Shown in pieces: positions 252 to 31,141 of a stretch of DNA of 64,000 nt. The position numbers and the translations under genes are program-made. The notes below the pieces were generated by a model, which did not search any database, had not been told where the DNA came from, and saw nothing but the letters and a program-made list of their open reading frames with translations. The stretch is taken from NCBI GenBank assembly GCA_964447405.1, contig CAYUSP010000003.1, positions 691,723 through 755,722 of the forward strand, in the 5' to 3' direction. How positions within the stretch are numbered: the first letter of the stretch is position 1; each line of letters starts with the position of its first letter. This stretch comes from an uncultured Nitrospiraceae bacterium (GTDB lineage: Bacteria > Nitrospirota > UBA9217).

Positions 252-300
252 GAAGCGTAAGGGGAAATCAGAGCACCTACAGGATTGATTACTGTTCTCC

Positions 301-332
301 ACCCCTGGCCCCTGGCCCCTGACCCCTGACCC
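301..332 (-). repeat. G-run tract on the mRNA-sense strand: GGGTCAGGGGTCAGGGGCCAGGGGCCAGGGG (5 G-runs, 3-nt loops)
   Basis: Read directly from the sequence. It lies between the gspI stop (337) and the gspJ start (251). Confidence 0.9.
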
Positions 333-336
333 TTTG

Positions 337-684
337 CTACTCATACCCCACCAGCTCTACCATTTCCTGCCGGTCCCCCTCTTTCCAGAGAACAGCAATG
401 CGCACCTCCATGATCTGGGTAAGGGGAGTGGGTGAAATCACCTTCTTCCATAGATACTCTTTGAACTCCACTTCGGGGAACTCCCCCTCATCCTCCGCAG
501 GAAGGCGCGGCCGCTTTACGATCGTGTCCGTCATCACCCGCTTCGCAAGAAGCGTGGCCGTGGTGATCCGCTCTGCTGCCAGGACGTTCTGCATGCTCCT
601 GTTTTTGAGCCCCAGCAGTGAGACCAGTACAAACGCCATGATCGAAACGGCCATCATCACTTCGAGAAGGGTGAAACCTTTCAT
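337..684 (-). CDS. gspI: Type II secretion minor pseudopilin GspI
   Basis: ORF 337..771 trimmed to the ATG at 684: MKGFTLLEVMMAVSIMAFVLVSLLG is a prepilin motif. Its ~115-aa size and operon position fit GspI. Confidence 0.75.
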   Translation of the reverse strand: MKGFTLLEVMMAVSIMAFVLVSLLGLKNRSMQNVLAAERITTATLLAKRVMTDTIVKRPRLPAEDEGEFPEVEFKEYLWKKVISPTPLTQIMEVRIAVLWKEGDRQEMVELVGYE

Positions 685-1841: not shown

Positions 1842-3062
1842 TCATCTCAGCCCCGAGCTCATCTCAAGCATAGGCAGCATGATGGCGATGACAATGAAAC
1901 CGATGATCAGGCCCATCACCAGGATGATCACCGGTTCCAGGAGCGCCAGAAACCCGGTGATGCGCGTCTCCACGGTGCGGTCGAACGAATCCGAGATCTT
2001 GAGTAGCATTTTTTCGAGTTCACCGCTCTTCTCGCCCACGGCAACCATCTGCACGACCACGGGCGGGAACAGGCCGCTCCTGCGCAGCGGGTCCGCGATG
2101 GGCTCGCCTTCACGTACGTTGTCGCGGGCCTTCTGGACCGCATTCGCCAGCACGGTATTCCCCACTACATTTCTGACAATATCAAGGGCAGTCAGCGTAG
2201 GAACTCCGCTCTGGAGCAGCGTGCCCAGTGTCCGCGTGAACCGGGATACCGTGATCATGCGGATAAGCCCGCCGAACACGGGAATACGCAGCAGCCAGGC
2301 GTCAACGGCCTCTCTTCCCGCTTGCGTGCCGATATATCTCCGGAAATAGAATATCCCCAGGCCAAGCGCCAGCAGGATCGCCCACCAGTAAGAGGAGAGC
2401 AGCCGCACGATCCCAAGCAGCATGAGCGTCACGAACGGAAGCTGCTGTTTCGTGTTCTCGAACATGCCCACGACGCGCGGCATTACAAAGCTGAACACGA
2501 AGAACAGCATGCCTGCGCCGATGATCGTCATGAACGCGGGATAGGCAAGGGCCGCTGTGATCCTGCCGCGGAACCGCACCTGCTCGTCCAGAAAATCCGC
2601 CAACCGGTCAAGGGTTATCTCAAGAGTCCCGCTCGCTTCACCAGCCGAGACCATGTTGACATAGAGCGGCGAAAAGACCTGCGGATTATCCTTGAGTGCA
2701 TCCGCAAGCGATGCGCCTTCGCGTACCCTGTCGCGCACCGCGGAGAGCGCGGCCTTCAGGGCCTCGGTCTCCTCCTGGTCCACCAGCACGGTCAGAGCAT
2801 CCATCAGGGGGAGCCCCGATGACAACAGTGTCGCAAGCTGCCGCGTGGAGGTGGCCAGGTCGCCGAGACGCACCTTTCGCCTGAACACGGTGGTTGATGC
2901 CCCCCTGCGGGCAGCCTGGGCAGCGTCCCCTTCGCGGATCTCAAGAACGATGATGCCGTCTTTCTTGAGCTTCGTCCGGACGGTCTTGAGGCTTTCCCCG
3001 TCCTGGGCACCGGATATCTTCTTTCCCTGGCTGGTAACGCCTTTGTATTCGTAGACCGGCAT
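1842..3062 (-). CDS. gspF: Type II secretion inner-membrane platform protein GspF
   Basis: 406 aa. The MPVYEYKG... start and duplicated T2SSF-type domains with TM helices are typical GspF/PilC features. Confidence 0.9.
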   Translation of the reverse strand: MPVYEYKGVTSQGKKISGAQDGESLKTVRTKLKKDGIIVLEIREGDAAQAARRGASTTVFRRKVRLGDLATSTRQLATLLSSGLPLMDALTVLVDQEETEALKAALSAVRDRVREGASLADALKDNPQVFSPLYVNMVSAGEASGTLEITLDRLADFLDEQVRFRGRITAALAYPAFMTIIGAGMLFFVFSFVMPRVVGMFENTKQQLPFVTLMLLGIVRLLSSYWWAILLALGLGIFYFRRYIGTQAGREAVDAWLLRIPVFGGLIRMITVSRFTRTLGTLLQSGVPTLTALDIVRNVVGNTVLANAVQKARDNVREGEPIADPLRRSGLFPPVVVQMVAVGEKSGELEKMLLKISDSFDRTVETRITGFLALLEPVIILVMGLIIGFIVIAIMLPMLEMSSGLR

Positions 3063-3086
3063 GGTTTTAATTCAGTTGGGGGTCGC

Positions 3087-3157
3087 GAGTTCGTAGTTCG
3101 GAGATAAAGACCGAAACTGCGATTCTCACTTCCATCTCCGAACTCCAAACTCCGAAC
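3087..3157. repeat. Intercistronic hairpin element: arms GAGTTCGTAGTTCGGAGAT / ATCTCCGAACTCCAAACTCCGAAC, 28-nt loop
   Basis: The inner 11 bp (AGTTCGGAGAT/ATCTCCGAACT) pair perfectly. The arms are tandem repeats of an (A)GTTCGGA-like unit. The element starts 5 nt after the gspE stop. Confidence 0.8.
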
Positions 3158-3162
3158 TTACC

Positions 3163-4848
3163 TCACGTTTCCTTCTGCGTCACCCTCACTACTTCGTCAA
3201 CTGACGTGATGCCGGCGAGGATCTTTTCTGCGCCGTCCTGGCGGAGCGAACGCATGCCTTTTTCCATAGCCAGGGCCTTGATCATGGAAGCATCCGAGTT
3301 CTTCATAATCATCTGGCGCATCTCGTCATCCACCGTCAGGAGCTCATAGATCGCGCTCCTGCCAAAATAGCCGGTGTGGAAGCAGGCTTCGCACCCTTTT
3401 GCCCGATACACGGTGATGCCCGCGGCTCCTGTCCTGATCTCGAGTTCCGCGATCTCGCCGGCGGTCATCTGGTATGGCTCACGGCACTCTTTGCACAGCA
3501 CGCGCACGAGCCTCTGCGCAAGGATCCCCATAACCGACGAGGAAATAAGAAACGGTTCGATCTTCATATCAATCAACCGGGTCACCGCACCGGCGGAATC
3601 ATTCGTATGCAGCGTGGAGAACACCAGGTGTCCGGTGAGCGCGGCCTGGATCGCAATCTCAGCGGTCTCGGAGTCCCGGATCTCGCCCACAAGGATCACG
3701 TCCGGATCCTGACGCAAAACCGAACGGAGCCCCGCGGCAAAGGTGAGATGGATCTTGGCGTTCACCTGGATCTGCCCGATGCCCTTGAGCTGGTACTCGA
3801 CCGGGTCTTCGATGGTGATGATGTTCTTGTCCGGAGAGTTGATCTTCGAGAGCGCCGCGTACAGCGTGGTAGTCTTGCCGCTGCCAGTCGGGCCGGTAAC
3901 GAGAACAATGCCGTGGGGTCGCTCGATCATCGCATTGAACCTGGTAAGGGTATCCCCGGTGAATCCGATCTGATCGAGAGGCAGCAGGGCGCTTTCGCGG
4001 TACAGGAGGCGGAGCACGAGCCGCTCGCCGAACGCGGTGGGAACAATCGAGACACGGATGTCCACATCCTTGCCACCGATCTTGATGCGCATGCCGCCGT
4101 CCTGCGGCAGCCGCCGTTCTGCGATGTTCAGATCGGCCATGATCTTGACGCGCGAAGCGATGCTGGCCTGAAACCGCTTCTGGATCGTGAGAATGTTGTA
4201 CAGGATGCCGTCTATGCGGAACCGCGCGATCATCTCTTTTTCGAAGGGCTCGATGTGAATGTCGCTCGCGCGCTCGCGGATGGCCTGGGACAGGAGCGAA
4301 TTCACCAGCCTGATGATCGGAGCGTCGTCGGTGGCCTCCAGCAGGTCCGCGGGCTCATCGAGCTCCACCGCGAGAAAGGACAGGTCATCCTCCTCCATTT
4401 CCTGGACCGTATCCTCGGCGCGGTTCATGTCCTCGCTGTGAAGGCGGTTGATGGTGTCCAGGATCAGTTCGGACGGGGCAAGCACCAGCGATATATCGGC
4501 GTTGAAAAGGGCCCGGAGATCATCAAGCGTGGCGAGGACAAGCGGTTCGGATGTGGCGGCAACGACCGAGCCGTTCTCCCTGCGGAGCGGGACGGCGATC
4601 GCTTTTTTTGCGTAGGTGATGGGAACCTTGAGGGCCAGCTCGCGGTCGATTTCCCCGAGCTCGCCCTGGAACGGAAGGCGGAGCTGGGCGCCGAGCGCCT
4701 TCAGCACATCGGCCTCCGTCACAAAGTTTAACCGGACCAGCAGCGTACCGATCCGTCCGCCGCGCTTTTTCTGGAGTTCGAGCGCCTTTTTCAGCCGCTC
4801 CGGCGAAAGCCCGGACTCAACAAGTATCTCGCCGAGCAGGCGTCTCAC
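3163..4848 (-). CDS. gspE: Type II secretion ATPase GspE
   Basis: 561 aa. It has an N-terminal T2SE_N-type domain, a Walker A motif (GPTGSGKTTT), and a tetracysteine motif (CKEC...CEAC). Confidence 0.92.
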   Translation of the reverse strand: MRRLLGEILVESGLSPERLKKALELQKKRGGRIGTLLVRLNFVTEADVLKALGAQLRLPFQGELGEIDRELALKVPITYAKKAIAVPLRRENGSVVAATSEPLVLATLDDLRALFNADISLVLAPSELILDTINRLHSEDMNRAEDTVQEMEEDDLSFLAVELDEPADLLEATDDAPIIRLVNSLLSQAIRERASDIHIEPFEKEMIARFRIDGILYNILTIQKRFQASIASRVKIMADLNIAERRLPQDGGMRIKIGGKDVDIRVSIVPTAFGERLVLRLLYRESALLPLDQIGFTGDTLTRFNAMIERPHGIVLVTGPTGSGKTTTLYAALSKINSPDKNIITIEDPVEYQLKGIGQIQVNAKIHLTFAAGLRSVLRQDPDVILVGEIRDSETAEIAIQAALTGHLVFSTLHTNDSAGAVTRLIDMKIEPFLISSSVMGILAQRLVRVLCKECREPYQMTAGEIAELEIRTGAAGITVYRAKGCEACFHTGYFGRSAIYELLTVDDEMRQMIMKNSDASMIKALAMEKGMRSLRQDGAEKILAGITSVDEVVRVTQKET

Positions 4849-16636: not shown

Positions 16637-16689
16637 ACTATTGATAAGAGGGAAACGTCGGTGAAGGATTCTATCTTACTTCTATCTTC

Positions 16690-17877
16690 TTACCTCTTCG
16701 CCTGCTCCTCTTCCCTCTCCATGCGAGCGTTCAGCTGTTTGTTGAACATATGATAGTTGCGTTTCATTTCCTCGATGCTGTCGCCGCCGAACTTGTCGAT
16801 CATGGCCGCTGCGATCTCGAAGGCAACCACTGCTTCCGCCACTACTCCTGCCGCGGGCACGGCGCAGACATCGGAGCGGTGCACGCTTGCCTTGAACGGC
16901 GTCTTGCTTACCAGATCAACGGAACGGAGCGGCTTCATCAGTGTGGGGATCGGCTTCATTGCCGCCCGAAGCGTTATGATCTCACCGTTGCTGATGCCGC
17001 CCTCGATCCCGCCCGCCAGATTGGTCTTGCGATAGAAACCGTCCTTCTTGTTCCACAATATCTCATCATGTACCTGGGATCCGGGCTTGTTGGCTGCACC
17101 GAATCCCGCACCGACCTCTACTCCCTTGATGGCCTGAATGCTCATGAGTGCGGCGGCAAGCCTGCTGTCGAGCTTCCGGTCCCAGTGCACGTGGCTGCCA
17201 AGTCCCATGGGCACACCGGTGATAAGCACCTCGAACACGCCACCCAGCGAGTCACCGGCCGCCCGTGCTTCATCGATCCGGCGCATCATGCGCTTCTCGG
17301 CCTCATGGTCAGCGCACCGCAGCTCCGATGCTTCCGCTTTTTTCCTGGTCTCTGCTGGTGCCATGGGTACCTTGGCATGGACATTCCCTATCGACAGCAC
17401 GTGGCTTATAACATCGATCCCAAATTCCTCAAGCAGCCTTTTTGCCACGGCACCTACAGCGACCCGCATGGCGGTCTCGCGTGCGCTCGACCTCTCCAGA
17501 ACGTTTCTTATGTCCGTGAATCCGTACTTCATGGCGCCGGCAAGGTCCGCATGGCCGGGACGGGGGCGGGTCACGGGGTCAGCAGAATTCAGGAACATGG
17601 GATCTGGTGACATCTTGTCGCGCCAGTTCTCCCAGTCCTTGTTGCGGACCATGAGGCCAAGAGGGCTGCCGAGCGTCTTTCCCCAGCGGACACCGGTGTA
17701 GATCTTGACCGTATCCTTTTCGATCTTCATCCGGTCACCGCGTCCGTATCCACCCTGCCTTCGGGCAAGATCACTATCTATATCCGTGACTCGTATCAGA
17801 AGGCCCGCTGGCAAGCCCTCAATAATGCCCATGAGCAGCTCGCCGTGCGATTCCCCAGCAGTCAGATAACGCAGCAT
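16690..17877 (-). CDS. aroC: Chorismate synthase
   Basis: 395 aa. The [12 protein letters not shown] start and the RPGHAD and GRSSARETA-like motifs fit AroC. Confidence 0.92.
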
Positions 17878-19309: not shown

Positions 19310-20145
19310 CTGCCGTGCTCACGATAGGCTACTCGCCCTGTCCTAACGATACCTATATTTTCTACGCTCTCACCCACGGCAAAGTAAGGATTCCGAATAT
19401 CGCCTTCCGTGAACAACTTGATGACGTCGAGACGCTGAACCGCATGGCACTCGAGGGTACGCTCGACATCACCAAGATTTCCTACCACGCCCTCGGCCAT
19501 CTGCGCGAGCAATACGCCCTGCTCCGGTCCGGCAGCGCGCTTGGCCGGGGATGCGGCCCGCTCGTGGTTACAAAACCGGGAACAACGCTGGATTTGGTCA
19601 GGAAAGGTTTGATCGCCATTCCCGGCGAACTCACGACAGCCCATCTTCTCCTTCGTCTCTTCGATCCCCAGATCACGAATCTAAAGGTGATGGCCTTCGA
19701 CCGCATCATGGACGCGGTAGCGCACGGGGAAGTTTTGGCCGGGCTTATCATCCACGAGAGTCGATTCACCTATCCATTGTACAAACTCGAAAAACTTATC
19801 GACCTCGGTGAATGGTGGGAGCGGTTCTCCAACCTACCGATCCCCCTGGGCGGCATCCTGGGCAGGCGTGCGCTCGGCAAAGATGTTTTACTTCGGGTGG
19901 AAGCCGGCATCCGGGAAAGCCTGCATTATGCGAATTCACACCCCGATGAGGTGCTGTCCTATTGTAAACAGCACAGCCAGGAGATGGATGAATCCGTGAT
20001 GAAGGACCACATAGACCTGTATGTGAATGACTTCTCACTTGACCTGGGAAAGGATGGCATGGCTGCGGTGCGGAGGCTTTTTGATGAAGCCGAGGCGCGG
20101 GGAATCTTTCCCCGTTCGGACATGCCGTTGCTTGCTGGGGAGTGA
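19306..20145 (+). CDS. mqnD: 1,4-dihydroxy-6-naphthoate synthase
   Basis: ORF trimmed to the ATG at 19306, which forms an ATGA overlap with the mqnB stop. TIGYSPCPNDTYIFYAL...DDVETLN...DITKISYHA...SGSALGRGCGPLVV is the MqnD signature. Confidence 0.8.
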   Translation: MTAVLTIGYSPCPNDTYIFYALTHGKVRIPNIAFREQLDDVETLNRMALEGTLDITKISYHALGHLREQYALLRSGSALGRGCGPLVVTKPGTTLDLVRKGLIAIPGELTTAHLLLRLFDPQITNLKVMAFDRIMDAVAHGEVLAGLIIHESRFTYPLYKLEKLIDLGEWWERFSNLPIPLGGILGRRALGKDVLLRVEAGIRESLHYANSHPDEVLSYCKQHSQEMDESVMKDHIDLYVNDFSLDLGKDGMAAVRRLFDEAEARGIFPRSDMPLLAGE

Positions 20146-20246
20146 ATTTATTATGCAGGGACGCTGATGAGTATGCTATACTTTTTTCACGTTGACAGAC
20201 CGCGGAATTGCGCGATCAAACACTAAGAAGATTCGAGGGAGGCGCT

Positions 20247-20807
20247 ATGGTTGGCTGGATACTGCTTGCTGTGCTTGGCCTGGTCATTATCTGGATCATC
20301 GTGATCTATAATGGGCTCGTATCGTTACGGAACGAGGTGCAGAATGCGTGGAAGCAGATCGATGTGCAGTTGAAACGCAGGCATGATCTGATCCCGAACC
20401 TGGTGGCAGCTGTGAAAGGCGCGCTGGAATTCGAACAGGACACCCTCGAAAAAGTGATTTCAGCCCGGGCAAAGGCCGTTTCCGCGGGATCTGCCGCATC
20501 CAAAGCCGACGCTGAGAACATGCTGACCCAGGCCATCGGAAAGCTCTTTGCCGTGATGGAGAACTACCCCGCGCTCAAAAGCAACGAAAACGTCCTGCGT
20601 CTCCAGGAGGAGTTGACCTCAACCGAGAACAGGATTTCCTTCGCGCGACAGTTGTATAATGACCTCGTTGCTAATTACCGGACCAGGCTCCAGGTCTTCC
20701 CGAACAATATCATTTCGTCAATGTTCAACTTTCAGACCGAGGAATATTTTTCAGCCGAGGAGCAGGCCAAGGCCACACCGGCTGTGAATCTGAGCATAAG
20801 GAAATAG
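20247..20807 (+). CDS. lemA: LemA family protein
   Basis: ORF trimmed to the ATG at 20247, preceded by GGGAGG. It has an N-terminal TM helix and YNGLV.LRN.V..AW.QIDVQLKRRHDLIPNLV, the LemA pattern. Confidence 0.85.
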   Translation: MVGWILLAVLGLVIIWIIVIYNGLVSLRNEVQNAWKQIDVQLKRRHDLIPNLVAAVKGALEFEQDTLEKVISARAKAVSAGSAASKADAENMLTQAIGKLFAVMENYPALKSNENVLRLQEELTSTENRISFARQLYNDLVANYRTRLQVFPNNIISSMFNFQTEEYFSAEEQAKATPAVNLSIRK

Positions 20808-20810
20808 AAC

Positions 20811-20921
20811 GGACAGAAGTAAGAAGACAGACTGAACCAATATACCGCACGCTTGTATACCTTGTCTATTGTCTGACTTCTCTCTTCTGTCCTCTGTCTT
20901 CTGTCCTCTGTCTTCTGACCC
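20811..20921. repeat. Cargo-less hairpin element related to the four-helix-bundle cassette, plus tandem CTCTGTCTTCTGTC units
   Basis: The left arm GGACAGAAGTAAGAAGACAGAC (20811-20832) pairs with GTCTGACTTCTCTCTTCTGTCC (20871-20892) at 19 of 22 positions. Its first 16 nt are identical to 29288-29303. It starts 3 nt after the lemA stop. Confidence 0.8.
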
Positions 20922-20926
20922 TCACC

Positions 20927-22561
20927 ATGCCCCTTACCTTTATTGACATAGAACGGCAGAAGAGCTGGCGCATAGGAATCTTTTTCCTCGTTCTCCTCGC
21001 GTTGTACCTCGTGATAGCGGCTCTCTTTGTAACCGCCTTTTTCCCCATTCCCTGGCATGGCGCGCTGCAGTTCTGGTTGATTGTCGGACTGGCTGCGCTG
21101 TTCATTGCAGGGATTCACTTCTGGTTCTCCGCATATGACACGGTCAGGACGGTAATACAAGGCCTCGAAGGCCAGCCGCCCGATCCTCAGGACGACGTGC
21201 ATACGATGTTCCTGAACATCATACAGGAGATCCAGGTCGTGACCGGGAGCAAACGGAAGATTCAGTGCACCGTGATTCCCTCATTCTCCCTGAATGCGCT
21301 GGCGGTTGCGGATCTCAGGGGCGAGGCTGCGATAGGAATCACGGAAGGTCTGCTGTCGCGCCTTACCCGGCCCCAGCTCGAAGCGGTCATCGCGCATGAA
21401 GCGCACCACATCCTTTCAGGGGATTGCCTGGAAGCCACCGTAGCTGCAAGCCTGTTCGGCACGTATGTATCTGCCATTGAAAAAATGAGCGCGACGTCAC
21501 AGGGCCGGGCCTTTGCGTCGCCCACGCTCCTGCTGGCCTGGCTGCTGATGAAACTGAGCCAGCTCCTGAACATGTTCATTTCTCGCGAGCGCGAGTACCG
21601 GGCCGACGCCGCAGCTGTACGCATGACCAGAAACCCCATCGCGCTCGCAGAGACACTCTATATGCTGTCGCGAAGCTGGCGGGGCGCTGGTTTTATCGGC
21701 AGCGGATACGAAATGCTCTGTATCGTGAATCCCCGATCAGCGTTCATGGACGAAACCGAAGGATTCTGGGCCGACCTGCTGTCCACGCATCCTCCGCTCC
21801 GGAAAAGGATGGACATTCTGCTTTCCATGGCGCATGCGAACATCGCTGAATTGGATGCCCGTTCAGCGGGGGCAGCAGATCACAAGCCGACAAAGGTGGA
21901 ACTTCGATACTATGCCATGAATCCCCAGCAAAAGTGGCAGGGGCCGTTCACGCCGGCAGAACTCGGCGAACTGCTGTGGTTGTCGCCCCTTACCTGGGTC
22001 ACGCAGGGCAAGAATCATCCCGTGGACCGCGCTTCGAAAGAGCCTTCCCTCAACGCCATTTTCATGGCTAAACTTGCCTCGCAGGAGCGGCCTCTTTCGG
22101 ATTTTTCCTGCCCTGCCTGCAGCCAGCAGCTCGTTATAAGTTCTTATGAAGGCACTCAGATCTATCAATGCAGATTTTGTTCCGGCATTCTGGTGGATAT
22201 GATGAAAATACCCCGGATCATCGCTCGAACAAGCCGGGAGCGTCTGTGCTCGGAGAGGATCGTATCTCTTGCCAAGGCAGTCGCTTCGGCAAATCAAATG
22301 AAAGTTACGCTTCAGAAACACGCTGCGGGTGGGCATAAGGCGGTTGCGCTTCTGCCGTGCCCGAAATGCGGCAATCCCATGTTCAGGTGCTTTTACAGCC
22401 AGGCCCACCTGATTGAAATAGACCGCTGCAGTTTCTGCAGCCTCACATGGTTCGAGCAGGACGAGCTCGAAATGCTGCAATGCATGATAGAGCACAGGTT
22501 GATGCCGGATGTCACCGGGCAGGAACAGATTACTCTGCCAACTGCTGAAGCATGGATTTAA
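20927..22561 (+). CDS. M48 family zinc metallopeptidase with a C-terminal GYF_2-like domain and two zinc-ribbons
   Basis: 544 aa. It has N-terminal TM helices and HEAHHIL (HExxH). YYAMNPQQKWQGPFTPAEL is GYF_2-like. CPACS...CRFCSG and CPKCG...CSFCSLTWFEQDELE are zf-TFIIB-type ribbons. Confidence 0.75.
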   Translation: MPLTFIDIERQKSWRIGIFFLVLLALYLVIAALFVTAFFPIPWHGALQFWLIVGLAALFIAGIHFWFSAYDTVRTVIQGLEGQPPDPQDDVHTMFLNIIQEIQVVTGSKRKIQCTVIPSFSLNALAVADLRGEAAIGITEGLLSRLTRPQLEAVIAHEAHHILSGDCLEATVAASLFGTYVSAIEKMSATSQGRAFASPTLLLAWLLMKLSQLLNMFISREREYRADAAAVRMTRNPIALAETLYMLSRSWRGAGFIGSGYEMLCIVNPRSAFMDETEGFWADLLSTHPPLRKRMDILLSMAHANIAELDARSAGAADHKPTKVELRYYAMNPQQKWQGPFTPAELGELLWLSPLTWVTQGKNHPVDRASKEPSLNAIFMAKLASQERPLSDFSCPACSQQLVISSYEGTQIYQCRFCSGILVDMMKIPRIIARTSRERLCSERIVSLAKAVASANQMKVTLQKHAAGGHKAVALLPCPKCGNPMFRCFYSQAHLIEIDRCSFCSLTWFEQDELEMLQCMIEHRLMPDVTGQEQITLPTAEAWI

Positions 22562-22576
22562 AGGACGCGAACATAC

Positions 22577-23251
22577 ATGATCACGATTAAGTTATTTGCG
22601 AATCTGAAGGACAAGGCAGGAAAGAGCGAGCTGCATATAGCTGCACAACAACTCACCCTATCAGACCTTATTGAGCGGATTGCCCGGGAGCATCCCGCCC
22701 TGTCCGAAATGCTATCCTGCGGCAGGATCATTGTATCTATCAATCAGGAGCTCGCGGGCAGGGATGCACTGATCAAGGATGGCGATGAAGTTGCGCTTAT
22801 GCCGCCGTTCTCGGGAGGTGGTCCGTCAGCGGGCGTAGTCCGAATACAGAAAGAGCCTTTTTCCATAGAAGAGGAAACAACTCGGCTGAAAACCTCATCA
22901 GCGTCCATCGGAGCGATTGTGGCATTCCTCGGGACTACCCGCGATATATCCAGGAATAAAAAGGTATCCCAGCTGGAGTTCGAACACTATCCCGGCATGG
23001 CGGAAAAAATGCTTCTCGAGTTGAGAGAGCGGGCGATCAGGGATTATAGGATACTCGATGCGACGATCATACACCGCACCGGCATCATACCCGCGGGCGA
23101 CGACATCGTCCTCGTCCTCGTCGCGGCCGGGCACCGCGACGAAGCATTTGCAGCATGCCGCTTCTGCATTGATGAACTAAAGAGAACTGCGCCTATCTGG
23201 AAAAAAGAGACCACGCCGGAAGGCGAGGTGTGGGTGGAGGAACATCCATGA
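22577..23251 (+). CDS. Fused MoaD-MoaE molybdopterin synthase (small and large subunits in one ORF)
   Basis: 224 aa. The N-terminal ~81 aa form a ThiS/MoaD-type fold ending ...ALMPPFSGG. This is followed by a MoaE-like region (IGAIVAFLGTTRD...EHYPGMAEK...LVLVAAGHRDEAFAACRFCIDELKRTAPIWKKE). Confidence 0.8.
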   Translation: MITIKLFANLKDKAGKSELHIAAQQLTLSDLIERIAREHPALSEMLSCGRIIVSINQELAGRDALIKDGDEVALMPPFSGGGPSAGVVRIQKEPFSIEEETTRLKTSSASIGAIVAFLGTTRDISRNKKVSQLEFEHYPGMAEKMLLELRERAIRDYRILDATIIHRTGIIPAGDDIVLVLVAAGHRDEAFAACRFCIDELKRTAPIWKKETTPEGEVWVEEHP

Positions 23252-23372
23252 GGCAGAGGTTAGAAGATTGATGACAGGCAAACCCAATAAAGCTCTTTGG
23301 TTCAGACTGCTATCTTTAATCTCTTGTTAGTCTGTCTTCTGACAGTCTGTTCTTATCGTCTTTTGTGCTCAA

Positions 23373-25439: not shown

Positions 25440-25547
25440 GGGTCATGTAGCATGGGTCAAGCAGCAAGGATCCAAGAGCGGGCGGTAACGATCTTGTTTG
25501 ATGGTTCTCCCCATGCTACTTGCTACAGTGCTTTTGCTACTTGACCC
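25440..25547. repeat. Hairpin element with arms built from GGGTCA(A/T)G(T/C)AGCA units
   Basis: GGGTCATGTAGCATGGGTCAAGCAGCAAGG (25440-25469) faces CCATGCTACTTGCTACAGTGCTTTTGCTACTTGACCC (25511-25547). The outer 14 bp pair at 13 of 14 positions. It starts 6 nt after the upstream stop. Confidence 0.7.
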
Positions 25548-25570
25548 TCTTCGACGAAGGAGAAGAACAC

Positions 25571-28665: not shown

Positions 28666-29313
28666 TTGCCATCACAAATAACTCATGCTATAACGCTCGT
28701 CATGTCAACCTCTCCCTCCTTAGAAGAACAGATAACGATGGCGGGCCTCACATACGGACGCCGCCACGACATCGCATACCGCTCCGGCATGGTGCTCCAG
28801 GTATGCGGTGCTGCCTTGCTCGCTGTGCTGTATCCGCTCGACAGCCCGTTCTATACCATAGGCATCATGCTGTTCGAAGCCGGCGTACTGCTTTCTGCAA
28901 TCTATCTTCTCGTTTGGATGCGCCCGGTCAAGAAGATAATAGTCGGGTCGGTGATCGCAGGGCTCGTTCTTCAAGTAGTCGGTGCCTTCGCGGCCCCGGA
29001 ACAATATGCGGGTCTGGTTCTGCTCTCAGGAATCGGGCTCGTCTGCGCTGGAGCGGCTGGGATGGTCGGCAATGAGGCGTTTTGCTTTGGATACCGTGAA
29101 GGCTGGGTGCTTATGCTGGCTGGATTTCCCGTGATGGTCCTGGCAAATCTGCTGCTCAGAGAGAACCGCATTTTCAATTCGCTGGGTTTCTCCGTTATTT
29201 TTTTACTGCTGCTTTCACTTACAGGCAAGAAGCTAAGGCAGAAATTGCTTTCTTTACCCTCTACAAGCGTTTGCGGGGTGTCGGAGAGGACAGAAGTAAG
29301 AAGTAAGAAGTAA
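28666..29313 (+). CDS. Hypothetical multi-pass membrane protein (possibly DUF2301-like)
   Basis: It has 5-6 predicted TM helices and a ...GNEAFCFGYREGW... motif. The start is uncertain (alternative ATGs at codons 13 and 25). The last ~9 codons and the stop lie inside the repeat arm of the downstream cassette. Confidence 0.5.
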   Translation: MPSQITHAITLVMSTSPSLEEQITMAGLTYGRRHDIAYRSGMVLQVCGAALLAVLYPLDSPFYTIGIMLFEAGVLLSAIYLLVWMRPVKKIIVGSVIAGLVLQVVGAFAAPEQYAGLVLLSGIGLVCAGAAGMVGNEAFCFGYREGWVLMLAGFPVMVLANLLLRENRIFNSLGFSVIFLLLLSLTGKKLRQKLLSLPSTSVCGVSERTEVRSKK

Positions 29314-29736
29314 GAGAACTACCAAATATAATTCGTCCAACATGAAAAAACATAACTTCAGAAATCTAAAAATCTACCAACGAGCCATAGCATTCGCTGT
29401 GGATATTTACCAGATCAGCAGGAGTTTTCCGCAGGATGAAATTTATGGGCTGACAAGTCAGATACGACGGGCCGCAACTTCAATCCCCCTTAATATTGCC
29501 GAAGGCAGTGGCAGCACATCAGGAAAAGAGTTTAGGCGATTTCTTGAAATTGCTTTACGTTCTGATTATGAGGTATTGGCCTGTCTGGAAATATCATTAC
29601 GATTGAATTACTGCAATCATGCGGTTTTTGAAAAACTGACTCAGGAAGCAAACGAAATAGCATCCATGATAGCTGGATTCTCAAAAAGCCTATAATCTTA
29701 CTTCTTACGTCTTATCTCCTTTTTCTTTCTTCTGTC
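29288..29736 (+). mobile_element. Hairpin-bounded cassette carrying a four-helix-bundle (23S rRNA IVS-type) gene
   Basis: The left arm is GGACAGAAGTAAGAAGTAAGAAGTAAGA (29288-29315). The right arm is TCTTACTTCTTAC...CTTCTGTC (29696-29736). The inner 13 bp and outer 8 bp are complementary. The cargo is AT-rich. The stop codons of both flanking convergent genes fall in the arms. Confidence 0.65.
29342..29695 (+). CDS. Four helix bundle protein (23S rRNA-intervening-sequence protein family)
   Basis: 117 aa. ...LKIYQRAIAFAVDIYQISRSFPQDEIYGLTSQIRRAATSIPLNIAEGSGSTSGKEFRRFLEIALRS..E is the canonical pattern of this family. Confidence 0.85.
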   Translation: MKKHNFRNLKIYQRAIAFAVDIYQISRSFPQDEIYGLTSQIRRAATSIPLNIAEGSGSTSGKEFRRFLEIALRSDYEVLACLEISLRLNYCNHAVFEKLTQEANEIASMIAGFSKSL

Positions 29737-31141
29737 ACTTAAAATCTTCCTTTTTCAAACCATACCGCGCCATCTTTTCATGGAAGTTCTTGATATTGAT
29801 CCCCGCATGACCAGCCGCTTTGGTCATGTTTCCGGCATACATTTTGAGAAGCTGGGTAAAATATTCTGTTTCAAACTGCGCAACGACCTCAGTTTTGATC
29901 ATCCGAAAAGGCGGGATATCGCCTCCTCCGGGGAATGACGCGGTGAACTTTCCTGTTCCTCCCGGACGTTTCAAGTCAAGACGGCTGAGGGTGTCGCCCT
30001 TTTCCATGATCACTGCGCGTTCGATAAGATTCTCCAGTTCGCGCACGTTTCCGGGATAGGAATACCGCAGCAACGCAGTGAGCGCATCCGGTGATATAGA
30101 AGTAATCGTTTTCTGGTTTTTTTCGCAATATTTCCTGAGAAAAAATGAGGCTAAAAGCGGGACATCGTCCATCCGGTCCCGCAATGCGGGCAATTTGATC
30201 GGAACAACATTCAGCCGGTAAAAAAGGTCCTCGCGAAACAACCGTTCACCCATAGCGCGATGAAGATCCTTGTGCGTGGCGGCAATGACCCGTACATCGA
30301 CTTTTACGGGATGATTACCTCCCACGCGTTCGAACTCACGCTCCTGCAGTACGCGCAGGAGCTTCATCTGGACCGGCATGGACATTTCCCCGATCTCGTC
30401 GAGGAACAGCGTACCACCATCCGCCATCTCGAATCTACCGATGCGCTGCCGGATCGCACCGGTAAACGATCCCTTCTCGTGTCCAAACAGTTCACTTTCC
30501 AGGAGGGTCTCGGGAAGGGCTGAACAGCTCACAACGACGAATGGGCGGTCCTTTCTTCTGCTGTTATAGTGGATCGACCGGGCTATGAGCTCTTTGCCTG
30601 TGCCGCTCTCTCCGTGGATCAGCACAGTTGCATCGGTCTCGGCCACTGTACGGATGAGCTGAAATATCCCCTGCATGTGCGGATTTCTTCCCAAAAGATT
30701 GCCAAACTGATAACGCTCCTCCACCTCATGCCTGAGATTTTCCACCTCCCGGAAAAGCCTCCTGCGTTCAACAGCATTTTTTACCTGTTGGCTCAGATCC
30801 TCATATTGTATCGGTTTGGTTAAAAAGCTGTAGGCGCCCTCCTTCATTGCCTTGACAGCCATCTCTATCGTCCCGTAAGCGGTCACGACGATCACCGGAA
30901 TGTCAGTCCTGCCCGGCCCCGGGAAGGCTCCCTTGCGAAGCTTCTCGAGCAGGTCCATACCCGTGATCATCGGCATCTGCTGGTCCACGATAATGACATC
31001 GAAATCGCGGCTCTCAAGGCATCTCAATGCCGAAACGCCGTCTTCCGCCGTCTCTACTTCATAGCCTTCCCTTCTGAGGTTGGCAGACATGACCAGAAGG
31101 ATGTCGGGCTCATCGTCGACTATTAAGAGGGAGCCTTTCAT
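29735..31141 (-). CDS. Sigma-54-dependent response regulator (REC, AAA+ and Fis-type HTH domains; NtrC family)
   Basis: 468 aa. The REC domain has LLIVDDEPD...DVIIVDQQMP. It also has Walker A GESGTGKE, the sigma-54 contact ESELFGHEKGSFTGA, and a C-terminal HTH. Confidence 0.9.
   Translation of the reverse strand: MKGSLLIVDDEPDILLVMSANLRREGYEVETAEDGVSALRCLESRDFDVIIVDQQMPMITGMDLLEKLRKGAFPGPGRTDIPVIVVTAYGTIEMAVKAMKEGAYSFLTKPIQYEDLSQQVKNAVERRRLFREVENLRHEVEERYQFGNLLGRNPHMQGIFQLIRTVAETDATVLIHGESGTGKELIARSIHYNSRRKDRPFVVVSCSALPETLLESELFGHEKGSFTGAIRQRIGRFEMADGGTLFLDEIGEMSMPVQMKLLRVLQEREFERVGGNHPVKVDVRVIAATHKDLHRAMGERLFREDLFYRLNVVPIKLPALRDRMDDVPLLASFFLRKYCEKNQKTITSISPDALTALLRYSYPGNVRELENLIERAVIMEKGDTLSRLDLKRPGGTGKFTASFPGGGDIPPFRMIKTEVVAQFETEYFTQLLKMYAGNMTKAAGHAGINIKNFHEKMARYGLKKEDFK

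What the first reader, a model, noticed from the sequence alone, without database searches (positions are those of the whole stretch)
20811..20921. Cargo-less relative of the four-helix-bundle cassette directly after lemA
Three nt after the lemA stop, GGACAGAAGTAAGAAGACAGAC (20811-20832) pairs at 19 of 22 positions with GTCTGACTTCTCTCTTCTGTCC (20871-20892) across a 38-nt loop.

The first 16 nt (GGACAGAAGTAAGAAG) are identical to the left arm of the four-helix-bundle cassette at 29288. The sequence just inside the arm (TGAACCAATATACC) resembles the cassette's GAACTACCAAATATAA.

The hairpin is followed by two tandem CTCTGTCTTCTGTC units that reach the M48 peptidase start region. This is a second full/empty pair, in the same orientation relative to the upstream gene.
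Basis: seen in the sequence. Interest (0 to 1): 0.6.

Follow-up and report, generated by a model that had tools for sequence, protein, structure and literature searches.

The report
Seven-base-repeat hairpin between lemA and peptidase genes
The hairpin is real and is one of many stem-loops in this Nitrospirota genome built from tandem 7-base repeats, a known but unexplained kind of bacterial repeat that here fills the gap between two co-transcribed genes and is built like the arms around the small "four-helix-bundle" genes.

Summary
The arms 20811-20832 and 20871-20892 pair at 19 of 22 positions, and the RNA fold is -37.4 kcal/mol (z -4.5). The 3' arm runs on as a 7-nt tandem array to 20920. 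The 16-mer recurs exactly only at 29288.

The hairpin is an inverted pair of tandem heptanucleotide arrays. The window has at least five such hairpins and six strict period-7 arrays, and none at periods 5, 6 or 8-11.

In 57 orthologous lemA-M48 spacers from related Nitrospirota, a long stem (median 25 bp) starts about 2 nt after the lemA stop and ends about 9 nt before the M48 ATG. The purine-rich arm lies 5' in 56 of 57. The M48 gene lacks a Shine-Dalgarno motif in all 57, while lemA has one in all 57. The heptamer sequence itself differs between lineages.

None of about 70 orthologous spacers holds a four-helix-bundle (FHB) gene, so this is an old resident structure, not a recent cargo loss.

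FHB genes elsewhere do sit between arms of the same kind. This holds for Nitrospirota and cas or sel operons, cyanobacterial plasmids, an Azospirillum 23S rRNA intervening sequence, Coxiella in the literature, and Xanthomonas XCC0516.

Verdict: a new member of a known repeat class. "Cargo-less relative" holds for architecture and heptamer family, but not as a full/empty pair at this site. Function (RNase III processing or translational coupling) is inferred.

The parts
20247..20807 (+). lemA coding sequence (186 aa, ATG start), the upstream gene of the pair
   Evidence: 100% identical to database protein P0001, Pfam PF04011. An SD-like motif lies upstream in 57 of 57 orthologues.
20177..20182 (+). 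Putative -10 hexamer (TATACT) of the lemA-M48 operon promoter
   Evidence: Read from the sequence. Orthologous upstream spacers carry TATAAT-like boxes at the same place and show no period-7 signal. This is inferred, not tested.
20811..20832 (+). 5' arm of the hairpin: three purine-rich heptamers (GGACAGA AGTAAGA AGACAGA C)
   Evidence: It is 16 of 16 identical to 29288-29303 and 21 of 21 identical to L023 766-786.
20833..20870 (+). 38-nt loop with a small inner stem. It opens with CTGAAC, completing the motif ACAGACTGAAC that spans the end of the 5' arm and the start of the loop.
   Evidence: fold. The motif ACAGAyTGAAC is shared with the orthologous spacers L165, L166 and L186, and with two other hairpins in L220.
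20871..20892 (+). 3' arm, pairing with 20811-20832 at 19 of 22 positions
   Evidence: (I1).
20872..20920 (+). Pyrimidine-rich tandem heptamer array (TCTGTCY units, about 7 copies). It includes the 3' arm, offers alternative pairing registers, and forms the SD-less leader of the M48 gene.
   Evidence: The stretch 20889-20905 is identical to the right arm of the Azospirillum 23S IVS.
20927..22561 (+). M48 (HtpX-like) zinc metalloprotease gene, the downstream gene of the pair
   Evidence: Synteny is kept in about 70 loci. No SD-like motif in any of 57 orthologues.
29288..29318 (+). Left arm of the FHB cassette, (GTAAGAA)n. It overlaps the stop codon of the DUF2301 gene.
   Evidence: The same 16-mer sits at the orthologous site in L023 and L220.
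29342..29695 (+). Four-helix-bundle protein gene (TIGR02436 / PF05635, the 'S23p' family), the only one in the window
29696..29737 (+). Right arm of the FHB cassette (TCTTACT-type heptamers). It overlaps the stop codon of the convergent sigma-54 regulator gene.
   Evidence: The arms pair in the full-length fold (z -3.9).
23249..23355 (+). Another hairpin with CAGAAG-type arms, in the convergent moaDE/merR spacer
   Evidence: z -1.3, weak.
25440..25548 (+). Heptamer hairpin (GGGTCAW / AGCAGCA units) between the FTCD-like gene and folD
   Evidence: z -2.8.
3060..3170 (-). Heptamer hairpin (GTTCGGA units) between gspE and gspF
   Evidence: z -3.55.
16668..16700 (-). Single AGAAGTA-type heptamer array between aroC and aroK, purine-rich on the sense strand

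Best explanation
**What it is**
The lemA-M48 spacer is an inverted pair of tandem heptanucleotide arrays. This is the class known from cyanobacteria (short tandemly repeated repetitive sequences, STRR), from Xanthomonas GGGAATC pairs and from Beggiatoaceae TAACTGA arrays. In the bicistronic lemA-M48 transcript the pair folds into one long stem-loop that takes up almost the whole spacer. It is the ORF-less counterpart of the stem-loops that carry FHB ('S23p') genes in 23S rRNA intervening sequences and at operon junctions.

**How it probably works (inferred)**
- The stem of about 25-28 bp puts the lemA stop codon and the SD-less M48 start codon next to each other.
- Either the stem is cut by RNase III, as shown for S23p intervening sequences, which leaves lemA with a protected 3' end and M48 with a short pyrimidine-rich leader.
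- Or a ribosome terminating on lemA melts the base of the stem and exposes the M48 start, giving translational coupling.

**How it changes over time**
The arrays are made and renewed at the DNA level, by slippage and by copying between the arms or between loci. This is why the architecture persists while the heptamer sequence is replaced.

**Shown versus inferred**
- Shown: anatomy, periodicity, polarity, conservation of design, absence of an SD, and the link to FHB arms.
- Inferred: co-transcription, RNase III cleavage, coupling, and the DNA-level renewal mechanism.
For: **Anatomy**
-.

**Heptamer specificity**
- The window has 6 strict period-7 arrays and none at periods 5, 6 or 8-11.
- In 367 kb of related loci there are 36 period-7 arrays against 5 or fewer at other periods.

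**Conserved design in 57 orthologous spacers**
- Self-match is 0.424 at period 7 and 0.365 at period 14, against 0.26-0.29 at other periods.
- The spacer upstream of lemA, used as a control, gives 0.265.
- Median fold z is -2.3.
- The stem starts a median 2 nt after the stop and ends a median 9 nt before the ATG. It has a median 25 bp, and 46 of 57 have at least 20 bp.
- The purine-rich arm is 5' in 56 of 57.
- An SD-like motif is present before M48 in 0 of 57 and before lemA in 57 of 57.
- Three orthologues without a hairpin have 3-4 nt spacers.

**Transcription**
- No promoter-like or terminator-like site lies on the + strand of the spacer.
- A promoter-like box lies upstream of lemA.

**Sequence turnover**
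- Spacers share 9-mers only when the flanking proteins are at least 85% identical.
- Unit numbers differ among relatives, for example L145, L146 and L191.

**Link to FHB cassettes and intervening sequences**
-.
- In the Coxiella IVS, RNase III cuts inside a stem whose 5' arm is made of GACAGAT heptamers (PMC4990558).
- Inverted heptamer pairs between aligned ORFs are described in Xanthomonas (PMC4692102).
- Arrays placed just upstream of SD-less starts are described in Beggiatoaceae (PMC4679880).
Against: - No expression data exist. Co-transcription, cleavage and coupling are all untested.
- Mismatches in the stems show no excess of G-U over A-C in the sense orientation (22 versus 35). So nothing shows that selection acts on pairing of the sense RNA, and the complementarity may be purely a DNA-level product.
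- About a fifth of the orthologous spacers fold no better than shuffles, and a few lack repeats altogether.
- Neither RNase III cleavage nor coupling explains why the unit is 7 nt.
- Single arrays without a partner occur at other junctions, so pairing is not required everywhere.
Confidence: 0.55

Rival explanations
1. Neutral, self-perpetuating repeat DNA. Heptamer arrays arise and renew by slippage and template switching in any spacer that tolerates them. The hairpin has no function of its own, and its persistence at this site reflects inheritance plus continuing turnover.
For: - The heptamer sequence is replaced between lineages while nothing sequence-specific is kept.
- There is no excess of sense-strand G-U wobble pairs.
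- Arrays occur at many unrelated junctions, both paired and single.
- Some orthologues have lost the hairpin with no visible consequence for the two genes.
Against: - Polarity is strict: purine-rich arm 5' in 56 of 57.
- Geometry relative to the stop and start codons is tight.
- The downstream gene lacks an SD in every orthologue.
- The control spacer in the same loci has no period-7 signal.
A purely neutral process would not be expected to produce these together.
Confidence: 0.25
2. A decayed FHB cassette or a miniature mobile element. The hairpin is what remains after a four-helix-bundle cassette that once sat between lemA and the peptidase gene lost its gene, or it is a non-autonomous copy that transposed there.
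For: - A 16-nt (in-window) and a 21-nt (L023) exact identity with FHB cassette left arms.
- A 17-nt identity with the right arm of an FHB-bearing 23S IVS.
- Both full and empty states exist at the cassette's own orthologous site (L023 and L220 full, L232 empty).
- The FHB gene is inverted between the arms in L220, so the arms recombine.
Against: - None of about 70 orthologous lemA-M48 spacers carries an FHB gene.
- The window's hairpin shares its loop-proximal motif with the orthologues L165, L166 and L186, which points to vertical descent.
- There is no target-site duplication.
- The 38-nt loop holds no recognisable FHB remnant.
- The inner-flank similarity is not significant.
- The shared stretches are only 2-3 repeat units of a heptamer family that is common in this lineage.
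Confidence: 0.12
3. An intrinsic terminator or attenuator that ends or throttles transcription after lemA.
For: - A stable stem lies directly after a stop codon.
- Some orthologues have runs of 4-5 T after the 3' arm, for example L121, L143 and L187.
Against: - In the window there is no T-run after the stem, the stem is not G+C-rich, and the terminator scan finds nothing on the + strand.
- The M48 gene has no promoter-like site of its own in the spacer.
- The stem abuts the M48 start codon.
Confidence: 0.08

Closest known systems
Inverted pairs of GGGAATC heptamer arrays in Xanthomonas, and GGGGAYT arrays in Nostoc (Rehm et al. 2015, PMC4692102)
   Same: - Tandem 7-nt units.
- Located between aligned ORFs, within about 50 bp of the stop or start codon.
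- 70-75 convergent pairs able to form stem-loops.
- Unit number varies while the type (single or paired) is kept between related genomes.
- One such array abuts the FHB gene XCC0516.
   Different: - Different heptamer and phylum.
- Here the arms are purine- or pyrimidine-rich rather than G4-type.
- The conserved stop/stem/start geometry and the missing SD were not described there.
- That paper draws no link to FHB genes.
23S rRNA intervening sequences carrying an S23p (PF05635) ORF: Coxiella burnetii (PMC4990558), Leptospira, and Azospirillum lipoferum (L227 here)
   Same: - A long stem formed by terminal inverted repeats made of heptamers of the GACAGAN family.
- Heptamer copy number varies between strains.
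- RNase III cuts inside the stem in Coxiella.
- 17 nt are identical to the Azospirillum right arm.
   Different: - The window hairpin lies in an mRNA spacer, not in rRNA helix 45.
- Its loop is 38 nt and has no ORF.
- Cleavage has not been tested.
Cyanobacterial short tandemly repeated repetitive (STRR) sequences and Beggiatoaceae TAACTGA arrays (MacGregor 2015, PMC4679880)
   Same: - Intergenic tandem heptamers.
- A fixed orientation relative to the downstream gene.
- The arrays end a few nt before start codons that lack a canonical ribosome binding site.
   Different: - Those are almost all single direct arrays (one inverted case among 170 sets).
- Here the array is paired into a hairpin that spans the whole spacer.
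ORF-less 23S rRNA intervening sequences (Salmonella, Yersinia and Campylobacter type). This comparison rests on my own knowledge plus the citations in PMC4990558.
   Same: A stem-loop of about 100 nt that is dispensable for the host molecule and is removed by RNase III. This is the 'cargo-less' state of an IVS.
   Different: - Those lie in rRNA, not mRNA.
- Heptamer periodicity is not a described feature of them.

Membership tests
Intergenic tandem heptanucleotide arrays / inverted heptamer pairs (STRR-like) | Tandem units of exactly 7 nt, three or more copies | tested here: met
   - TRF reports period 7 with 6.6 copies at 20872-20917.
- The 5' arm holds three units.
- Strict arrays are found only at period 7 in the window.
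Intergenic tandem heptanucleotide arrays / inverted heptamer pairs (STRR-like) | Non-coding location between aligned ORFs, close to the stop and start codons | tested here: met
   3 nt after the lemA stop and 6 nt before the M48 ATG.
Intergenic tandem heptanucleotide arrays / inverted heptamer pairs (STRR-like) | Two arrays in convergent orientation able to form a stem-loop | tested here: met
   I1-I5; z -4.5.
Intergenic tandem heptanucleotide arrays / inverted heptamer pairs (STRR-like) | Many dispersed arrays in the same genome | tested here: inconclusive
   At least 5 hairpins and 5 single arrays in these 64 kb. The whole genome was not available.
Intergenic tandem heptanucleotide arrays / inverted heptamer pairs (STRR-like) | Unit number varies between related genomes while the type (paired or single) is kept | tested here: met
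   Orthologous spacers, for example L145, L146 and L191 with 3, 4 and 6 CGGATTG units. The paired type is kept across 57 loci.
S23p/FHB intervening-sequence cassette | Terminal inverted repeats forming a long stem, with heptamer units | tested here: met
   The same GACAGAN-type family is found in the Coxiella IVS, in L227 and in the cassettes of L207, L214 and L218.
S23p/FHB intervening-sequence cassette | An ORF for a PF05635/TIGR02436 protein inside the loop | tested here: not met
   The loop is 38 nt. tblastn finds the FHB protein only at 29342-29692 in the window and in none of the orthologous spacers.
S23p/FHB intervening-sequence cassette | Excision from the host RNA by RNase III | not testable with these tools
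   Needs an in vitro cleavage assay or RNA end mapping.
23S rRNA intervening sequence (any type) | Insertion in helix 25 or 45 of 23S rRNA | tested here: not met
   The window has no rRNA (Rfam). The element lies between two protein genes.
Miniature inverted-repeat transposable element (MITE) | Target-site duplication and several near-identical full-length copies | tested here: not met
   - The flanks AGAAC and CTCACC are not direct repeats.
- Only 16 nt of one arm recur in the window.
- Nothing longer than the shared arm (21 nt, in L023) turned up in the genome scan.
Intrinsic (Rho-independent) terminator | G+C-rich stem followed by a U-tract | tested here: not met
   No + strand site in the scan of 20000-22000. 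No T-run follows 20892 or 20920.

The most novel reading that the evidence does not exclude
Heptamer-array hairpins and four-helix-bundle (S23p/Avd-like) genes may form one system.

- The FHB protein would be the long-sought partner that binds the heptamer arrays, as RNA or as DNA.
- The FHB gene would be optional cargo that moves into, flips within, or is lost from the loops of such hairpins.
- Empty hairpins such as the one after lemA would be the resting state of the same element.

This reading would link two old puzzles: what bacterial heptamer repeats are for (known since about 1990), and what the ORF in 23S rRNA intervening sequences does (known since about 1993).
Probability: 0.2. Interest if true: 0.8.

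Novelty: new member of a known kind. Interest (0 to 1): 0.5.

Why it matters
- Bacterial heptamer repeats and the S23p/FHB family have each been known for decades without a known function, and I found no paper that links them.
- This locus gives a clean natural series. One gene junction keeps a stem-loop of fixed geometry and polarity across a whole clade while its sequence is replaced, and the downstream gene has no ribosome binding site.
- That makes the element's role in mRNA processing or translational coupling directly testable.
- FHB genes in five bacterial phyla, and in 23S rRNA, sit between arms of the same design, and in two of those phyla (Pseudomonadota and Nitrospirota) the arms use the same GACAGAR heptamer family. 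This points to a concrete binding experiment.

Tried and rejected
**Searches that found nothing useful**
- Rfam at gathering threshold on the whole window: no family.
- 16-mer scan of one genome per species: almost all hits are at chance level and the window's own genome is not among the representatives. Only L023 was useful.
- FHB profile scan of viral contigs: no relatives.
- Literature searches for TIGR02436, PF05635 and 'intervening sequence protein' together with repeats: no paper links FHB genes to heptamer arrays, apart from the heptamers noted in the Coxiella IVS.

**Ideas tested and not supported**
- Strand-asymmetry test for RNA-level selection: G-U versus A-C mismatches were 22 versus 35, which gives no support.
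- Terminator reading: rejected for the window.
- MITE reading: rejected, since there is no target-site duplication and no full-length copies.

**Orthologues of the FHB site**
- Four look-ups gave one empty hairpin (L232) and three rearranged or repeat-free sites (L231, L233, L234). The full/empty series there is thin.

Full report
**1. The observation**

The lemA-like gene ends with TAG at 20805-20807. Three nucleotides later GGACAGAAGTAAGAAGACAGAC (20811-20832) begins. It pairs at 19 of 22 positions with GTCTGACTTCTCTCTTCTGTCC (20871-20892) across 38 nt.

As RNA, 20800-20930 folds at -37.4 kcal/mol. Dinucleotide shuffles give -23.6 +/- 3.1, so z is -4.5 and none of 200 shuffles does as well.

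The 16-mer GGACAGAAGTAAGAAG occurs exactly twice in the window, at 20811 and 29288. With up to three mismatches there are 6 hits against 0.45 expected.

The 3' arm is the first part of a tandem array (20872-20917; period 7 with 6.6 copies, or period 14 with 2.8 copies at 96% match). The array ends 6 nt before the ATG of the M48 peptidase gene. Because it is longer than the 5' arm, several pairing registers are possible (I2-I5).

The one detail that fails is the similarity claimed just inside the arms, which is not significant (P about 0.09).

**2. Gene context**

- ORF 20247-20807 is a LemA family protein (PF04011). It is 100% identical to a database protein found on Nitrospirota-like contigs.
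- ORF 20927-22561 is an HtpX-like M48 metalloprotease.
- ORF 29342-29695 is a TIGR02436/PF05635 four-helix-bundle (FHB, 'S23p') protein. It is the only one in the window. Its nearest solved relatives are XCC0516 of Xanthomonas (PDB 2GSC) and 2RLD.
- The closest named relatives of the flanking genes are Nitrospirota/Nitrospirae metagenome-assembled genomes.

**3. It is a heptamer-repeat hairpin, one of many**

- The 5' arm reads GGACAGA-AGTAAGA-AGACAGA. The 3' side reads TCTGTCY repeated about seven times.
- A strict scan (at least 17 of 21 self-matches) finds six period-7 arrays in the window and none at periods 5, 6 or 8-11.
- Other heptamer hairpins lie at:
  - gspE|gspF (3060-3170, minus strand, z -3.55);
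  - FTCD|folD (25440-25548, z -2.8);
  - moaDE|merR (23249-23355, weak);
  - around the FHB gene (29288-29737; the arms pair in the full fold, z -3.9).
- Single arrays sit in four successive junctions of the gsp pseudopilin operon and between aroC and aroK.

**4. The orthologous spacer in relatives**

A metagenome scan with LemA returned 80 syntenic lemA-M48 loci with 71-84% LemA identity. Further loci came from exact-protein look-ups.

Spacers are mostly 75-140 nt long. Read side by side, nearly all consist of tandem heptamers followed by their reverse complement, but the heptamer differs between lineages:

| 5' heptamer / 3' heptamer | Example loci |
|---|---|
| CGGATTG / CAATCCG | L145, L146, L152, L154, L179, L191 |
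| GGGGTCA / TGACCCC | L130, L172, L188, L189, L197 |
| GGACGAN / NTCGTCC | L129, L139, L143, L193 |
| AGTGAGG / CCTCACT | L127, L149, L173 |
| CAGGAGY / RCTCCTG | L144, L161, L170, L187, L196 |
| CAGAAGN / NCTTCTG | window, L157, L163, L176 |

Measured over 57 distinct complete spacers:

- Mean self-match is 0.424 at period 7 and 0.365 at period 14, against 0.26-0.29 at all other periods.
- The spacer upstream of lemA in the same loci shows nothing at period 7 (0.265). It carries a -10-like box and a strong SD instead.
- Median fold z is -2.3, and 53% of the spacers have z below -2.
- The main helix starts a median 2 nt after the lemA stop (IQR 1-4) and ends a median 9 nt before the ATG (IQR 5-13). 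It has a median 25 bp, and 46 of 57 have at least 20 bp.
- The purine-rich arm is on the 5' side in 56 of 57.
- An SD-like motif precedes M48 in 0 of 57 and lemA in 57 of 57.
- Spacers share 9-mers mainly when the flanking proteins are at least 85% identical. Below that, about 10% of pairs share one.
- Unit numbers differ among close relatives.
- Three loci have no hairpin and a 3-4 nt spacer.
- No spacer contains an FHB gene. One (L180, 735 nt) holds a GIY-YIG ORF.
- The window's version shares the arm-to-loop motif CAGARGACAGAyTGAAC with L165, L166 and L186, which indicates vertical descent of this particular version.

**5. Relation to FHB cassettes**

*The cassette's own site.* The FHB cassette at 29288 is orthologous to one in Nitrospirae bacterium GWC2_56_14 (L023; protein 80% identical, same neighbours). 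The left arm of that cassette is 21 of 21 identical to window 20811-20831. In another relative (L220) the same site keeps the 16-mer, but the FHB gene lies inverted between the arms. In L232 the site is empty: the left arm, a 47-nt loop and the right arm, next to a relic of the regulator gene's last 13 codons.

*Other close FHB homologues.* These sit inside operon junctions between GACAGAR-type arrays and their complements:
- DUF2130|cas10 (L207);
- cas1|cas2 (L214);
- selA|selB (L218).

*More distant homologues on cyanobacterial plasmids.* These also lie between heptamer arrays, of other sequences. Four of the seven cyanobacterial loci have clearly inverted arms (L223, L228 with an 8-nt unit, L229, L230), one has direct arrays on both sides (L224), and two have an array on only one side (L225, L226).

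*23S rRNA intervening sequences.* One homologue (L227, Azospirillum lipoferum plasmid) lies inside a 23S rRNA gene (Rfam LSU, E 2e-164). Its arms are CAGAGGA/CGGAGGA units, and its right arm shares 17 nt exactly with window 20889-20905. The Coxiella 23S intervening sequence has AGAAGA plus GACAGAT repeats in its 5' arm. The unit number varies between strains, and RNase III cuts inside the stem (PMC4990558).

*Xanthomonas.* In the supplement of Rehm et al., a GGGAATC array lies between accB (XCC0517) and XCC0516 and overlaps its start. XCC0516 is the crystallised FHB protein.

So the arms of FHB cassettes are generally heptamer arrays, and the lemA hairpin belongs to the heptamer family that accompanies this FHB subfamily.

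**6.

- Right: the structure, the shared 16-mer and the kinship of design with the FHB cassette.
- Wrong or unsupported:
  - that this is a full/empty pair at this site;
  - that the inner flanks are related;
  - that the 16-mer is specific to the cassette. AGAAG-type arrays also occur at aroC|aroK and moaDE|merR here, and at two further junctions in L220.

**7. Mechanism**

*Shown.* The spacer is essentially one long stem-loop with fixed polarity. Its base abuts the stop codon of lemA and the SD-less start of M48. There is no terminator or promoter signal in the spacer.

*Inferred.*
- (a) The two genes are co-transcribed from a promoter upstream of lemA.
- (b) The stem of 25 bp or more is an RNase III substrate, as in S23p intervening sequences. 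Cleavage would leave lemA with a structured 3' end and M48 with a short pyrimidine-rich leader. Alternatively, or in addition, a ribosome terminating at the lemA stop melts the base of the stem and frees the adjacent start, giving translational coupling. The 3-4 nt spacers in the hairpin-less orthologues fit a coupled junction into which a looped-out element has been accommodated.
- (c) The arrays are generated at the DNA level by slippage and by copying between arms or loci. This would account for the turnover, the unit-number variation, the inversion of the cargo in L220, and the lack of a sense-strand G-U excess (22 versus 35).

None of this explains why the unit is 7 nt.

**8. Rivals**

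- Neutral self-renewing repeat DNA (0.25). This fits the turnover and the wobble test. It fits poorly with the polarity, the geometry and the universal absence of an SD.
- Decayed cassette or MITE (0.12). There is no FHB gene in any orthologue, no target-site duplication and no remnant in the loop.
- Terminator (0.08). There is no U-tract or G+C-rich stem here.

**9. Comparison with what is known, and novelty**

Intergenic heptamer arrays, including inverted pairs between aligned ORFs, are described in Xanthomonas and cyanobacteria (PMC4692102). Arrays abutting SD-less starts are described in Beggiatoaceae (PMC4679880). A regulatory role with an unidentified binding partner has been proposed in Nostoc (bioRxiv 10.1101/2022.06.06.494920).

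The lemA hairpin is a new member of that class, in Nitrospirota. It is not a member of the S23p-IVS family, because it has no ORF and is not in rRNA, although it is built like one.

Three points seem not to be in the literature I could search:
- the conservation of design with replacement of sequence at one orthologous junction;
- the systematic lack of an SD on the downstream gene;
- the general placement of FHB genes between heptamer arrays.

I score interest at 0.5. The bolder reading, that FHB proteins and heptamer arrays form one system, gets probability about 0.2 and would merit about 0.8 if true.

Noticed in passing
window 299-337, 728-768, 1266-1308, 1790-1820: Four successive junctions of the minus-strand gsp pseudopilin operon each carry a CAGGGGT-type heptamer array. 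The arrays are G-rich on the mRNA strand, with four or more G-tracts, so they could form G-quadruplexes. A mechanical ORF finder reads straight through them.
   Followed up: partly
window 3060-3170 (minus strand), 25440-25548, 23249-23355: Three more heptamer-repeat hairpins, each with a different heptamer: gspE|gspF (fold z -3.55), FTCD|folD (z -2.8) and moaDE|merR (z -1.3).
   Followed up: partly
window 16668-16700: A single AGAAGTA-type array between aroC and aroK, purine-rich on the sense (minus) strand. It is the same heptamer family as the FHB arms, but there is no partner array and no FHB gene.
   Followed up: no
L220 19191-19640: At the site orthologous to window 29288-29737 the arms are conserved, but the FHB gene lies on the opposite strand. 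This looks like an inversion by recombination between the inverted arms. The gene is called at only 80 aa, so it may be decaying.
   Followed up: partly
L232 2080-2190: An empty version of the FHB site: DUF2301 stop and left arm (AACAGAAGTAAG), a 47-nt loop, then the right arm. It is followed by a relic of the last 13 codons of the sigma-54 regulator gene, which has been replaced by another regulator.
   Followed up: partly
L180, 735-nt lemA-M48 spacer: In one metagenome contig the lemA-M48 spacer holds a small GIY-YIG nuclease ORF flanked by several REP-like hairpins (CCCGAAG...CTTCGGG) instead of a heptamer hairpin.
   Followed up: no
L207 versus L210, about 1850-2000: The same FHB gene and downstream cas10 are joined to different upstream genes (DUF2130 versus an LPG-synthase-like gene). 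The junction lies inside the GGACAGAG/GGGCAGAG array, which suggests the arrays are recombination breakpoints.
   Followed up: no
L224 (Pseudanabaena plasmid, cas6|cas4): This FHB gene is flanked by long direct arrays, not inverted ones: AAAAGCT about 14 times upstream and AAAAGCC about 10 times downstream. Pairing of the arms is therefore not universal.
   Followed up: no
L207, L214, L223, L224, L228: FHB genes are often inserted inside CRISPR-cas operons: cas1|cas2, cas6|cas4, cas10|cmr3 and DUF2130|cas10. The gene is in the same orientation as the cas genes.
   Followed up: no
Xanthomonas campestris XCC0516-XCC0517 (supplement file 2 of PMC4692102): The crystallised FHB protein XCC0516 (PDB 2GSC) sits next to accB, with a GGGAATC heptamer array overlapping its annotated start. 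The paper lists the gene only as 'conserved'.
   Followed up: partly
window 29297-29313 and the C-termini of DUF2301 orthologues (P0241-P0360): - GTAAGAA repeated three times places TAA in all three reading frames.
- The upstream DUF2301 gene reads into the arm, so its C-terminal tail varies between orthologues (...RGQK, ...SQNKH, ...ADDRSQRSDNRERG).
   Followed up: partly
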